Origin: Octopus vulgaris
Lineage: Eukaryota
Length of the DNA stretch: 64,000 nucleotides
Assembly: GCA_951406725.2 (NCBI GenBank)
Contig: OX597830.1
Span: 29,202,001 to 29,266,000 of the forward strand
Direction: 5' to 3'
The translations under genes were made by a program, and so were the position numbers. Below the pieces are notes generated by a model. It was not told the DNA's origin. It did not search any database and saw only the letters and a list, made by a program, of their open reading frames with translations. Of this stretch, positions 4,650 to 58,253 are shown in pieces (position 1 is the first letter of the stretch; every line of letters starts with the position of its first letter).

Positions 4650-5038
4650 GTCTAGTAACTCTAAGACTAAGAATTCTATTTACCAGTGTAGAATTTCTTC
4701 CGGTACCGACGTTTTCTTTTATATAAGAGCGTCCACTTCTCAGTTATCCAAGAGAATTTCTAACCACTATTCGACATTCAGGGATAGGAAAAAAACGACA
4801 TAGTACAGGTCTAAGTAAATTAGTTTGGCGTCTTAAAGACAATAATATAATTTTCAAGTTAGATTGGTTTATAATGTCTGTATCCTTTCCTTTTGATAAG
4901 GGCGGGAGATTTTGTAACATTTGTAACTCTGAACTCTTCCATATTCTTTTCGCTAAGATTCCGCTAGTAAACACACCCATAGAAAAATCGTACAAATGTA
5001 AACACTGGCAGAAACACACTTTCTACTCATATAAATGA
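4650..5038 (+). pseudogene. Frameshifted GIY-YIG endonuclease C-terminal domain of a Penelope-like element
   Basis: KNSIYQCRISSGTDVFFYIRASTSQLSKRISNHYSTFRDRKK, frameshift in the A-run near 4795, then RHSTGLSKLVWRLKDNNIIFKLDWFIM...FCNICNSE...CKH..*. This fits the PLE pattern xIY..YIG..KRxxNH..SF..STxLSKxxWxLK..W.I..CxLC..E..CxH. Confidence 0.85.
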
Positions 5039-5513
5039 TAACGGTTGTCACTGTGGTTTGAACAATTAGCTTCACGTCCACCCCACTGCTATAGAGAAAT
5101 TCTTTCCTAAGCCTTCGAACATTCTTTCAATCAACGTACCCTTCCCTCTCCACTTGTTCCCTACCTATTACTCCTTTATACCTTCTCTTACTACTATCTA
5201 TCTTTGACGTCTGTCTCTCTCTCACACACACAATCACACACACAGACACAAATGCAGTTATACACACACACATACACACACAGAAACACACGCACTCATT
5301 AACACAAGCATACACCCACACATTTCCATACATACAGCAAACATACTGTCCCCTACCCATTATTACTTTATCCCTTTCCTTCCTCCTACTATCCATTTTT
5401 GACGTCAATTCTCCTAACGGATTTTTAAAAAAATACGCTCATTATCGCTCTGTTTACCATGTAGGGAATCATCGAAATTTTTGTTTGTCTTGTTGTCGAG
5501 AGAGGCTCCCTTT

Positions 5514-5595
5514 CTTTCCTGATGAGAAGATTACATAATGCACCCTTTATTCCTTCGGAATGAAAATATGCTGTCTTCGAAACATGTGTCGAGAG
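5514..5595 (+). ncRNA. Type I hammerhead ribozyme (PLE-type)
   Basis: Stem I ctttc/gagag; core CTGATGA 5519-5525; stem II gaagat/gtcttc with a long loop; GAAAC-ATGT-GTC; predicted cleavage after 5590. Confidence 0.85.
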
Positions 5596-5799
5596 TAAAC
5601 GAATTTTATTAACATCTTCGTTCGACTCCATTCTTTCTTTTATTCATATACAACACACAAATTTATGCACATGAACCCGGAGTTTCTACCCTTGACAGGT
5701 CGCTTCAACCGTGTTTTCTGACTTGAATTTGCTACCCAGGTTTCGGTTAAACGAATTTTCCATGCTGACCATAAACATAGGATAATTCATTCACCTACT

Positions 5800-6444
<645 letters not shown>

Positions 6445-25945: not shown

Positions 25946-26959
25946 TCTATATATATAAAACTGTAGTTGTGTGAGTGTCTGTCCCCTTCGATTTAGATTC
26001 CTAACTACTCCCACATTTTGCGGTGCAGTTTAACCAAAACCGGGTATCTTATAGTCGTGATTCATATCGAGCCCGTCTGGCTATTAGCGCGCATCTACGA
26101 TGAGTCTACGATTTTAAAAATAATTTAACATAATTTTTTATTCCATTTTAATGCATATTTTTTCGTGTGTCGATAGCGGCGGAGTTGGCGTCCACGCTCA
26201 CGCCTGCACCTGTTTGCTTCTCCCCCTTCTTCGCTCCCTCGTGAAGCTGTGGGGAAGGGTGTGTAAGGAAATCAACGTCGTAATGCGTTGTCAAGGAGAC
26301 CAGCGTTCTTTTAGAACAACGACTTCATGGCTTGAAGTCGCCAAAACAGAAATCGCTAAAAAAGCTGAAACAGATCCACAAAAACGGCAATTACCGCCAC
26401 ACAGTGCAGGTTTCCTGTGCAAACAATTTGCACAACCGAATGTTTTAGTTGTTGCACAAATCTTTATATATAAAAGTAAGGTTGTGTGTCTGTCTCCTAC
26501 GATTTAGATTCCTAATTACTCCCACATTTTGCGGTGCAGTGTAACCAAAACCGGGTATCTTATAGTCGTGATTCATATCGAGCCCTTCTGGGTATTAGCG
26601 CGCGTCTACGATGAGTCTACGATTTAAAAAAAAAATTACCATAATTTTTTATTCCATTTTAATGCATTTTTCGCTATTATATAAGGGAAGTAACTCTCTA
26701 AAAATGTCTACGATGAGTCAACGATTAAAAAAAAAATTACCATCATTTTTTATTCCAATTTAATGCATTTTTTGCTATTATATAAGGGAAGTAACTCTCT
26801 AAAAATGTCTACGATGAGTCAACGATTTAAAAAAAATATTACCATCATTTTTTATTCCATTTTTAATGCATTTTTTACTATTTTTTTGCTATAACTCACT
26901 AAAAATGCTTATATAGTTATTTCCCTTACAAACCCGAGCAACGCCGAGCGATACTGCTA

Positions 26960-45776: not shown

Positions 45777-45933
45777 GGCGCAGTAGTGGCTGTGCGGTAA
45801 GTAGCTTGCTTACCAACCACATGGTTTCGGGTTCAATCCCACAGCGTTTCATCTCCAGCAAATGTCTTCTACTTTAGCCTGGAGCCGACCAAAGCCTTGT
45901 GAGTGGATTTGGTAGACTGAAACTGAAAGAAGC

Positions 45934-46165: not shown

Positions 46166-46300
46166 AATTTCCGTCTACCTAATCCACTCACAAACTTTTA
46201 GTCGGCCCGAGGCTATAATAAAAGGCACTTGTCGAAGTTGCCACGCAGGGGGAATGAACCCGGAACCATGTGCTTGGAAAGCAAGCTTCTTAGCACACAG
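46166..46300 (-). mobile_element. SINE group A, 5' half
   Basis: Reverse complement of the head (aatccactcacaa...gaacccggaaccatgtg). Confidence 0.7.
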
Positions 46301-46785
46301 AAGCAAGCTTCTTAGATATATATATATATCTTTTGTCTCCTCTTTCTGAAGAAGTGGTGTACCCGAAATTACCTTTCGTTCCTTCCCTGACCGTGTGCTA
46401 ATACTTCGCATGTACCGCGGCCTTGTGCTGTTGTTTTCATCTTGTGTGTGATTTTTTTTTGGGGGGGGGGGATTTATTATTTTATATATATATATATATA
46501 ATTTCAACAATTGAGGGTAAAATTAATTAATTATTAATCAATTTCACCAAGTATTCAGTATGTAAAGGGACCATTTAAGGCGAATTCAAAATATTACATT
46601 TTATAAAGGGCTTAGTAAAATAAATTACTTTGCCACATACTGAACTCATTAGAAATAGCAGCCAAAAAAAATTTTTTTAGCCATTTCTAATACTTAAAGA
46701 AAATTTCTCTCAGATAGTGTTTGCTCAAAATAACCCACGAAGGTATGGGGGTAAAAACATTAAAAAATCACAAGTGCAAAGATTA

Positions 46786-46847
46786 TTTGAGAACGTACGT
46801 TTCTAGATCAGCCAAATACAATTCGACATTTCTTTCGTCAGCTCAAA
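46786..46847 (-). ncRNA. Type I hammerhead ribozyme (mirror of 47207-47268)
   Basis: Reverse complement of the + copy. Confidence 0.75.
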
Positions 46848-47206
46848 ATTTCTTAATTCGGATTTGTAAACACTGAAAGTAGGAGCATACCCTTTTGGCG
46901 ACTTTTCACCTCCGAAGATCCGTTCAAACTAACAGTGCCAACAAATTCAAAATATGCAAGCGAAGAATTTCTGCCTCCCCCTCCACCCACGTGGGCTAGA
47001 CTAGCAAACACCACGTTTTATCGGTTTTATCGATAAAACATGGTGTTTGCTAGTCTAGCCCACCTGGGTGGAAGGGAGGGCAGAAATTCTTCGCTTGCAT
47101 ATTTTGAATTTGTTGGCACTGTTAGTTTGAACGGATCTTCGGAGGTGAAAAGTCGCCAAAAGGGTATGCTCCTACTTTCAGTGTTTACAAATCCGAATTA
47201 AGAAAT

Positions 47207-47268
47207 TTTGAGCTGACGAAAGAAATGTCGAATTGTATTTGGCTGATCTAGAAACGTACGTTCTCAAA
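47207..47268 (+). ncRNA. Type I hammerhead ribozyme
   Basis: Stem I tttgag/ctcaaa; CTGACGA 47213-47219; stem II aga/tct plus gtcgaa/tttggc; GAAAC-GTAC-GTT; predicted cleavage after 47262. Confidence 0.75.
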
Positions 47269-47458
47269 TAATCTTTGCACTTGTGATTTTTTAATGTTTT
47301 TACCCCCATACCTTCGTGGGTTATTTTGAGCAAACACTATCTGAGAGAAATTTTCTTTAAGTATTAGAAATGGCTAAAAAAATTTTTTTTGGCTGCTATT
47401 TCTAATGAGTTCAGTATGTGGCAAAAGTAATTTATTTTACTAAGCTCTTTATAAAATG

Positions 47459-47509
<51 letters not shown>

Positions 47510-47556
47510 TGAATTGAAGAAATGGAGCTGAACGCAGATTGAACAGAAATCATTTT

Positions 47557-47648
47557 ATTTCATTCTACACGTGTTTCGAAAGGCACAAATTACCAAAATC
47601 CGATTGAATAATGGGACCATATTGTGTCTTTCTCTTCAGGAAGAAAAT
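47557..47648 (-). ncRNA. Type I hammerhead ribozyme (mirror of 47681-47772)
   Basis: Reverse complement of the + copy. Confidence 0.8.
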
Positions 47649-47680
47649 AGGAAATCCGTTGGAAAAACAACGGATTTCCT

Positions 47681-47772
47681 ATTTTCTTCCTGAAGAGAAA
47701 GACACAATATGGTCCCATTATTCAATCGGATTTTGGTAATTTGTGCCTTTCGAAACACGTGTAGAATGAAAT
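47681..47772 (+). ncRNA. Type I hammerhead ribozyme
   Basis: Stem I attttcttc/gaatgaaat; CTGAAGA 47690-47696; stem II gaaagacaca/tgtgcctttc with a long extension; GAAAC-ACGT-GTA; predicted cleavage after 47763. Confidence 0.85.
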
Positions 47773-47979
47773 AAAACGATTTCTGTTCAATCTGCGTTCA
47801 GCTCCATTTCTTCAATTCACCAATAATATTTTAATTTCAATTATCCGCACCAACGCACGGTTGCAACACCATATGGTTGTACCTCCAACCGTGCTGTTTA
47901 CTGCTGTGATTTTTGCTACTAAGGTATCGGTTAAACTTTTGATTAATCTACTACAAGATTATTCATCTTTCTATTTCAC

Positions 47980-48044
<65 letters not shown>

Positions 48045-57719: not shown

Positions 57720-57785
<66 letters not shown>

Positions 57786-58253
57786 TTAACATTTTAACAT
57801 TAAAGTATAAAATAAAATAAATATGTTCTCTAATGGCCAGCATTAACTGCAGTAAATTATTTACTGCAGATTTTGTTTCCGGAACTTTAGCGCGCCAGAA
57901 CTAAGTCATTTGAAATTAACCCCAATGTAATCGGTAAAACTAAGCACGTGTCTGTATTTATACGGAAAACTGGTGGTTAGTTTTACAAATTACATTACCT
58001 GTGCAACGATCGCACTGACGAGCCTACGGACAAGGGATTACATAAGTGATTCATTCGTTAATAGGCGAAACCGCCGGTCTGTGAGTAATTCTGTTTTTTT
58101 ATATAATTTTCATCTGTCTTGCCCGCATATTATTCTGGTGTCCACTGAATTTTCCTCTAGAGAACATTCTTTTCTTTGTAGTTTGATCGTAGGTGATCTA
58201 CTTCTAGCATACGGCTGACCACCTAGTGGTTTTTTAACCCTTTAAATATACAC

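What the first reader, a model, noticed from the sequence alone, without database searches (positions are those of the whole stretch)
47504..47980. Second, unrelated ribozyme palindrome only ~40 bp away in the same TA tract
A different family (CTGAAGA, ~55-nt stem II, ACGT loop, GUA site) with 158-bp arms. Together with its neighbour this gives four HHRs in ~1 kb, alternating -,+,-,+. A + transcript would be cut after 47262 and 47763, releasing a ~500-nt fragment; minus transcripts would likewise be cut twice. This suggests a (TA)n insertion hotspot.
Basis: partly seen in the sequence, partly recalled or inferred. Interest (0 to 1): 0.72.

Follow-up and report, generated by a model that had tools for sequence, protein, structure and literature searches.

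The report
Head-to-head Penelope retrotransposon stub with hammerheads
The palindrome is two cut-short, head-to-head copies of the end of a young jumping gene with about 1,500 copies, a known arrangement; it is predicted to fold into a long hairpin rather than release a 500-nt RNA, but sister copies suggest that both halves were likely copied from one RNA molecule.

Summary
The palindrome, both hammerhead motifs and the -,+,-,+ order are real. They are the 5'-truncated end of a young Penelope-like retrotransposon (1,528 exact end matches; 3,626-nt unit, 895-aa RT/GIY-YIG protein, Hydra-like). Its inverted short arm is the family's normal form (55 of 88 loci). The neighbour is a 560-nt non-coding tandem retrozyme with no sequence similarity. 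The 500-nt product is not supported: read-through RNA is predicted to form a -277 kcal/mol hairpin, and the ribozyme fold costs +141. The hotspot is weak: the two families abut 10 times genome-wide, against 1-6 expected, and any hammerhead neighbour occurs at 4 of 86 insertions against 13 of 315 background TA tracts. The scan found this kind of palindrome before on other DNA of this genome. Two side results matter more. The two arms share diagnostic bases (0 of 72 discordant against 40% between loci), and one copy carries the same 18S rRNA piece joined at the ribozyme cut in both arms, which points to cleavage in vivo and one sense RNA template. The protein has lost three of four linker cysteines kept in 57 of 57 relatives, yet still targets (TA)n.

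The parts
47668..47980 (+). Main arm: 5'-truncated 3' end (pseudo-LTR) of a Hydra-like Penelope-like element, ending at the fixed 'long' end ...TTTCACA
   Evidence: 99.7% identical to the 3' end of the full-length unit; 100% identical over 313 nt to 4 other loci; 1,528 exact end matches
47504..47667 (-). Inverted arm of the same element, starting at the fixed 'short' end (155 nt inside the long end) and joined head-to-head to the main arm
   Evidence: the same start (offset -145 to -170) in 55 of 88 loci
47680..47773 (+). Type I hammerhead motif (helix I 47680-47689/47764-47773, CTGAAGA 47690-47696, helix II domain 47697-47751, GAAA, palindromic CACGTG helix III, predicted cut after 47763)
   Evidence: cut position supported by the 18S rRNA junction in copy L170
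47556..47649 (-). Mirror copy of the hammerhead motif, predicted cut after 47566
47826..47980 (+). 155-nt 'tail' between the two fixed ends (inferred: the two reverse-transcription start sites)
   Evidence: tail concept from PMC8557442 and PMC11167929
47461..47506 (.). (TA)n target tract shared with the neighbour
47983..48042 (.). (TA)n target tract on the right
46503..47463 (-). Neighbour: head-to-head insertion of a 560-nt non-coding tandem unit (non-LTR retrozyme type); main arm on minus (long end about 46503), inverted arm on plus (short end about 47463); hammerheads at 46841 (-) and 47213 (+)

Best explanation
The palindrome is two 5'-truncated, head-to-head copies of the hammerhead-bearing end of a young protein-coding Penelope-like retrotransposon sitting in a TA repeat, likely made in one insertion when the element's enzyme primed DNA synthesis from both strands of the target at two fixed sites of one RNA. 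Shown: the parent unit (3,626 nt, RT plus C-terminal GIY-YIG, about 1-kb direct repeats), the two fixed ends 147-155 nt apart, variable 5' truncation, TA on both sides, and identical diagnostic bases in the two arms. Inferred: nicking of both TA strands; internal initiation at two sites (shown in vitro for the Anolis element, PMC11167929); joining of the two truncated cDNAs by 0-5 nt of microhomology; a single sense RNA as template. The hammerhead belongs to the parent's life cycle: it is predicted to cut as a dimer through its CACGTG palindrome, and most templates were uncut or re-ligated. Here it is a passenger, predicted to be buried in a 158-bp hairpin in any read-through transcript. The neighbour is a separate and probably earlier insertion of a non-coding retrozyme that uses the same kind of target; the two abut because long TA tracts attract many such elements.
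For: Full-length parent with ORF and pseudo-LTRs; uninterrupted 899-codon frames in L031, L040, L167 (two) and L187. The ORF agrees motif by motif with Hydra-1_Obim in the supplement of PMC8557442 (compared by eye). Relatives weakly hit RVT_1 (4 of 80) and GIY-YIG (4 of 80), and the profile's best PDB hit is a retron RT (E 0.025). Architecture: 55 of 88 loci carry the inverted arm from the short end; long ends abut TA in 79 of 80; junction overlaps are mostly 0-5 nt. Arms concordant: 1 of 201 diagnostic sites in 36 loci against 42% between loci; 0 of 72 in 16 young loci against 40%. L170 carries one 18S rRNA piece in sense orientation, joined at the predicted cut in both arms. Folding. Adjacency statistics. 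Opposite-strand hammerhead pairs 100-700 bp apart were already noted for truncated PLEs (PMC4209133 section 5).
Against: P0001 itself has no significant Pfam or PDB hit, and the structure job never finished. Arm concordance would also arise if each germ cell expresses one source locus. The L170 chimera is one locus, found after the fact, with a 1-nt ambiguity (G) at the junction; no second rRNA chimera turned up among 46 cut-site variants. Arm ends show no sharp peak at the cut (12 against 6, 16 and 11 at three nearby positions). The excess of symmetric arm ends (8 of 50 within 3 nt against 1.1 expected) can also come from annealing at short palindromes. Two of four null models leave a three-fold excess of adjacency (P about 0.003) and the uniform model a nine-fold one. 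An earlier AI note (e1-9536500) reports discordant arms in about a tenth of palindromes of another family.
Confidence: 0.88

Rival explanations
1. The four hammerheads work together here: read-through transcripts are cut twice and release a ~500-nt (plus) or ~770-nt (minus) RNA that may circularise.
For: The motifs and their spacing are as described. Alone, the plus-strand motif is only 1.8 kcal/mol from its active fold. The L170 junction suggests that this ribozyme can cut in vivo.
Against: Each sense ribozyme lies downstream of its own antisense copy; the active fold costs +140.8 kcal/mol unless transcription starts inside the palindrome, past about 47640. PLE hammerheads cut poorly and as dimers (PMC4209133) or need the element's protein (PMC11167929). 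The two motifs have different helix III palindromes (CGTACG and CACGTG), so they are not natural dimer partners (inference). The neighbour's motif has an A-A mismatch closing helix II.
Confidence: 0.04
2. This TA tract is a true hotspot: a fresh insertion, its flanking TA or its chromatin attracts further Penelope-type insertions beyond what tract length explains.
For: 10 abutting pairs genome-wide against 1.1 (uniform) or about 2.9 (length-weighted) expected. Further abutting or fused pairs with sister families were seen in L094, L026, L184 and L201.
Against: With the observed distribution of target lengths, 5.8 pairs are expected (P about 0.13). Any hammerhead neighbour: 4 of 86 against 13 of 315 for background tracts. 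Insertion numbers and detection factors in the null are my estimates.
Confidence: 0.2
3. The inverted arm arises by fold-back (self-priming) of a cDNA or of an antisense template, as proposed for rotifer Penelope elements, and not by a second target-primed start.
For: Symmetric arm ends are in excess and the arms are identical at diagnostic sites. PMC3846280 proposes self-priming on an antisense template.
Against: Most loci are asymmetric, often with the inverted arm much the longer (for example -81/-838 and -31/-1093). The inverted arm always begins at a second fixed site abutting TA instead of running out to the long end. The 18S piece in L170 is sense and sits on the ribozyme's 5'-OH side.
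Confidence: 0.15
4. The palindromes are assembly or library fold-back artefacts.
For: Near-perfect inverted repeats in a simple-repeat context.
Against: The arms differ by a private substitution and have unequal, family-fixed ends. The same design recurs with different junctions at dozens of loci. No read spanning this locus was seen, so the single locus is not independently verified.
Confidence: 0.02

Closest known systems
Hydra clade of C-terminal EN+ Penelope-like elements, incl. Hydra-1_Obim (Craig et al. 2021, PMC8557442; seen: passages, section 11, supplement hits)
   Same: Single ORF with RT and C-terminal GIY-YIG; DKT motif; CxxC and CxH around the EN's E/N; no CCHH; canonical hammerhead; (TA)n targets; tandem and inverted insertions with a tail.
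   Different: A different family from Hydra-1_Obim (other hammerhead and protein sequence). Unit of 3.6 kb instead of under 3 kb, with an N/S-rich linker. RWL in place of RWK. The CxCX5C linker motif is lost (1 Cys against at least 4 in 57 of 57 relatives). Tail of 147-155 nt instead of 30-40.
Poseidon element PAc of Anolis (Frangieh et al. 2024, PMC11167929; seen: parts 1-3 of 4)
   Same: Two internal start sites that define the tail; both target strands cut and extended; AT-rich targets; uncut RNA as the main template.
   Different: Different clade. Here the start sites lie upstream of the ATG and 150 nt apart, and the evidence is genomic, not biochemical.
Minimal/type I hammerheads of metazoan PLE pseudo-LTRs (Cervera and de la Pena 2014, PMC4209133; seen: passages and section 5)
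   Same: Type I core with short palindromic helix III predicted to work as a dimer; dual motifs on opposite strands 100-700 bp apart were already reported.
   Different: Longer (55-nt) helix II domain; no extra base between positions 9 and 10.1.
Animal non-LTR retrozymes (Cervera and de la Pena 2020, PMC7229834, passages; Li et al. 2026, bioRxiv 10.64898/2026.07.22.740005, part 1 of 5)
   Same: The neighbour: non-coding tandem unit with one type I hammerhead per repeat; a mismatch at the base of helix II, as in axolotl HHR_Amex2.
   Different: 560-nt unit (longer than about 300 nt), inserted head-to-head with PLE-type long and short ends; RNA circles not shown here.
U6/LINE-1 chimeras formed by RtcB ligation (Moldovan et al. 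2019, PMC6789731; seen: abstract and outline)
   Same: Copy L170: a cellular RNA piece joined 5' of a truncated retroelement RNA before copying (inferred).
   Different: The partner is an 18S rRNA fragment, the 5'-OH would come from the element's own ribozyme, and the junction is present in both arms.

Membership tests
EN+ Penelope-like elements | Single ORF with RT and GIY-YIG endonuclease | tested here: met
   895-aa ORF with YRDD and VYQ..YVG; motif-by-motif match to Hydra-1_Obim (by eye); relatives hit RVT_1 and GIY-YIG below the curated cut-offs; P0001 alone has no significant Pfam hit
EN+ Penelope-like elements | Partial tandems forming pseudo-LTRs | tested here: met
   About 1-kb direct repeats 3,626 nt apart in L031; tandem full units in L167 and L187
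EN+ Penelope-like elements | Inverted 5'-truncated copy and a tail at one end only | tested here: met
   55 of 88 loci; tail 147-155 nt
EN+ Penelope-like elements | Hammerhead motif in the pseudo-LTR | tested here: met
EN+ Penelope-like elements | Telomerase-related RT by phylogeny or fold | not tested
   No tree with reference PLEs was built; the structure prediction did not finish
Hydra clade | DKG modified to DKT | tested here: met
   DKT at residue 122
Hydra clade | N-terminal RWK motif | tested here: inconclusive
   RIRWL at residue 35: RW kept, K replaced by L
Hydra clade | CCHH motif absent; CxxC and CxH flanking the EN's E and N | tested here: met
   One Cys inside the GIY-YIG core; CNLCVSE at 855 and CPH at 883
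Hydra clade | CxCX5C linker between RT and EN | tested here: not met
   Only C742 is kept; the aligned positions are S744, N760 and S771, whereas 57 of 57 relatives with an aligned EN have at least 4 Cys. The same loss is seen in every family copy read (one has a single extra Cys) and in a sister family. Filed as Hydra-like, not as a member.
Hydra clade | Insertion into (TA)n | tested here: met
   79 of 80 long ends and 62 of 80 opposite ends abut at least 10 bp of TA
Hydra clade | Generally under 3 kb | tested here: not met
   Unit of 3,626 nt
Type I hammerhead ribozyme | Conserved core with helices I, II, III and an NUH site | tested here: met
   covarying sister motifs
Type I hammerhead ribozyme | Self-cleavage | not testable with these tools
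   Only indirect support: the L170 junction; no sharp truncation peak
Non-LTR retrozyme (neighbour) | Non-coding tandem unit with one type I hammerhead per repeat | tested here: met
   560-nt period, longest open frame 101 codons
Non-LTR retrozyme (neighbour) | Circular RNA intermediate | not testable with these tools
   Only contigs were served

The most novel reading that the evidence does not exclude
Penelope-like elements of this lineage build their head-to-head insertions by copying ONE sense RNA molecule twice, from two fixed sites and onto both strands of a TA target; their hammerhead does cut in vivo, leaving a 5'-OH end that the cell can ligate to other RNAs (here 18S rRNA); and TA recognition does not need the linker zinc finger to which it has been ascribed.
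Probability: 0.45. Interest if true: 0.6.

Novelty: new variant of a known kind. Interest (0 to 1): 0.33.

Why it matters
What is useful is the family as a record of mechanism. How Penelope-like elements form their inverted ends, whether their template is sense or antisense, what their hammerheads do in vivo and what aims them at microsatellites are named as open questions in PMC8557442, PMC3846280 and PMC11167929. A young family with uninterrupted reading frames, two start sites 150 nt apart, a natural rRNA-tagged template and a natural loss of the linker cysteines makes these questions testable in vitro.

Tried and rejected
RNA evidence: no RNA holder listed (19 of 23 runs hold the element, none on record as RNA), so expression is neither shown nor excluded. 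Contigs of three guessed-RNA runs begin exactly at 47764, the base after the predicted cut. I rejected this as evidence: a common G/T variant at 47794 (163 against 54 copies) puts a 31-mer graph branch at exactly that start. No intron joint appeared in contigs laid on the full unit. Rfam: only miRNA-type hairpin matches over the palindrome among the rows shown. Truncation peak at the cut site: not found (12 against 6, 16, 11); local breakpoints cluster just upstream, at offsets -223 to -232, on the TTTCGAAA and CACGTG palindromes. A first pattern for GC-rich partners at the cut found 0 because it excluded A at the last position. Co-insertion of the two families in one event: no fam1 arm joined to a fam2 arm in 88 loci. 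L184 fuses a fam1 short end to the short end of a sister PLE, but two short ends fit adjacent insertions plus a deletion equally well. Host gene: none of the 122 open frames of 90 aa or more looked like a host exon near the site (by eye); intronic or intergenic position is undetermined. Structure prediction of the ORF was still unfinished, so no fold search was run. Literature searches for a TA hotspot of PLEs, octopus hammerheads and twin priming in PLEs gave nothing on point beyond PMC8557442; subscription journals are not covered, and the supplement of the 2026 bioRxiv paper was not seen.

Full report
Observation. The inverted repeat is as described: arms 47504-47661 and 47668-47825, 158 nt, one mismatch, 6-nt loop. 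Each arm holds a type I hammerhead motif with CTGAAGA, a 55-nt helix II domain, a palindromic CACGTG helix III and a GUA site; predicted cuts follow 47763 (+) and 47566 (-). With the neighbour's motifs (cuts after 47262 and 46792) the order is -,+,-,+ in 972 bp. The motif is not chance: one scanner found 19 motifs in 40 arbitrarily placed 10-kb stretches of the genome (7 of them in one array) and 0 in their shuffles, and sister families keep the helices with changed bases. The right arm continues 155 nt beyond the palindrome to 47980, then (TA)n.

What it is. The right arm is a high-copy repeat: 1,528 exact matches of its last 27 nt, 100% identical over 313 nt to four other loci. Locus L031 holds the parent: two about 1-kb direct repeats 3,626 nt apart around an uninterrupted 895-aa ORF; such frames also occur in L040, L167 and L187. 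The protein has no significant Pfam or PDB hit alone. It has 8,564 relatives at E up to 0.001, a few of which weakly hit RVT_1 and GIY-YIG (4 of 80 each). By eye it agrees motif by motif with Hydra-1_Obim in the supplement of PMC8557442, with DKT, YRDD, CxxC and CxH as defined in section 11 of that paper. It is a different family and lacks one defining feature, the CxCX5C linker, so I call it Hydra-like. That the genome is an octopus comes from earlier AI notes and this resemblance; I did not test it.

Architecture of the family. I took 88 loci from the first 100 listed end matches on contig C1 (two overlapping loci dropped). They were chosen by the long end; an inverted arm beginning 145-170 nt inside it occurs in 55 of 88, mostly at offsets -147, -153 and -155. 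Long ends abut TA in 79 of the 80 loci with both flanks in hand, the opposite ends in 62 of 80. The inner ends vary freely and join with mostly 0-5 nt of overlap. The window's copy (main arm to -313, inverted arm from -155 to about -320) is one short example. This is the tandem/inverted structure with a one-sided tail described in PMC8557442. Opposite-strand hammerhead pairs 100-700 bp apart were noted in PMC4209133. PMC11167929 shows for another clade that the tail lies between two internal start sites, that both target strands are cut and extended, and that uncut RNA is the main template. Here 74 of 82 arms that reach the cut region pass through it, in agreement.

The neighbour. It is a 560-nt non-coding tandem unit with one hammerhead per repeat (3,074 exact end tags), with its own long and short ends at TA and no nucleotide similarity to this family (best E 0.25): a non-LTR retrozyme by the definitions in PMC7229834 and the 2026 bioRxiv preprint. 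Its main arm is on the minus strand, so the two insertions face each other with their short ends. Its best other copy is 98% identical, against 100% for this family, so it probably came first (inference).

The 500-nt product. On either strand the antisense arm precedes the sense ribozyme. The 322-nt palindrome folds at -277.5 kcal/mol, and forcing the hammerhead costs +140.8, against +1.8 for the isolated motif. Helix II of the ribozyme forms only if the transcript starts past about 47640. The neighbour's plus-strand motif likewise lies downstream of a 395-bp antisense arm and has an A-A mismatch closing helix II. These are equilibrium predictions, but the margin is large. No run on record as RNA was available. 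The apparent contig starts at 47764 are explained by a variant at 47794. If the locus is transcribed, long double-stranded RNA is the likelier product (inference).

The hotspot. Two gap patterns, limited to 150 nt, found 6 and 4 places where the families abut, this locus included. From TA-abutting end counts (forward strand 755, 818, 1,029 and 1,139) and TA tracts in 400 kb of sampled genome, I expect 1.1 under uniform choice, 2.8-2.9 under length weighting, and 5.8 with the summed flank lengths actually seen (P of 9 or more: 2e-6, 0.003, 0.13). The inputs are estimates. A model-free check found another hammerhead within 600 nt beyond the TA flank at 4 of 86 insertions and at 13 of 315 background tracts. 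Sharing is therefore frequent and mostly explained by long TA tracts; a residual excess is not excluded.

Mechanistic side results. First, the two arms of a locus carry the same diagnostic bases: 1 of 201 sites discordant in 36 loci against 42% between loci, and 0 of 72 in 16 loci of the young subfamily against 40%. One active source per cell would give the same result. Second, L170 has both arms stopping at the predicted cut, each joined to the same 270-nt GC-rich piece, which is sense 18S rRNA from an 18.4-kb tandem array; one junction base is ambiguous. The simplest reading is ligation of an rRNA fragment to the ribozyme's 5'-OH product, as for U6/L1 chimeras (PMC6789731, abstract), followed by two rounds of copying from that one sense molecule. 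This argues against the antisense self-priming model of PMC3846280. It is a single case: no second one appeared among 46 cut-site variants, and arm ends do not peak at the cut (12 against 6, 16 and 11). Third, the protein keeps one of four linker cysteines that 57 of 57 relatives with an aligned endonuclease keep; a sister family, a fragment of which lies at window 4651-5803, has lost them too and also ends in TA. PMC8557442 associates this linker with TA targeting; here targeting persists without it.

Verdict. Observation confirmed; interpretation partly supported. The finding is a known kind of structure that this scan has met many times in this genome (872 notes fit a three-word look-up; none matched this sequence). 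It is a variant of the Hydra type by its linker and long tail. Interest 0.33, carried by the side results, not by the four-ribozyme arrangement.

Noticed in passing
L170:2702-3270 (G000:C1:121058535-121059134): Palindrome of this family in which both arms stop at the hammerhead cut and carry the same sense 18S rRNA fragment (about 270 nt).
   Followed up: yes
window 4651-5803 (+): Truncated 3' end of a sister Hydra-like family (GIY-YIG 53-58% identical to P0001, hammerhead CTGATGA at 5519, ends in TA); 1,532 first-look candidates; also lacks the linker cysteines.
   Followed up: partly
window 57783-58245 (+): Another hammerhead motif (CTGACGA at 58015, cut after 58079) in a ~460-nt segment between two TA tracts; family not traced.
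   Followed up: no
window 47213-47262; L138; The neighbour's subfamilies close helix II with A-A (54 of 54 motifs matched), U-U (L138) or A-U, so mismatched ribozymes were amplified.
   Followed up: partly
L184, beyond a ~790-bp TA tract: A retrozyme short-end arm (142 nt) is fused head-to-head to the short-end arm of a sister PLE: either co-insertion or a deletion between adjacent insertions.
   Followed up: partly
L201:1369-2436: Retrozyme insertion next to an older copy of this family, with about 290 nt of that copy's junction duplicated on the far side.
   Followed up: no
L093, between the arms: About 350 nt of foreign sequence captured between the two arms (offsets -237 and -233), single copy, unidentified.
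   Followed up: no
window 26604-26882: Tandem repeat of period 101, 2.7 copies, 94% matches.
   Followed up: no
window 45790-45922 and 46168-46300: Inverted pair (133 nt, 79%) of a common short dispersed repeat just left of the neighbour.
   Followed up: no
L209 (G000:C1:20000001-20010000): Array of about 359-nt units with seven hammerheads on both strands, another retrozyme family; L210 holds a 1,043-codon open frame.
   Followed up: no
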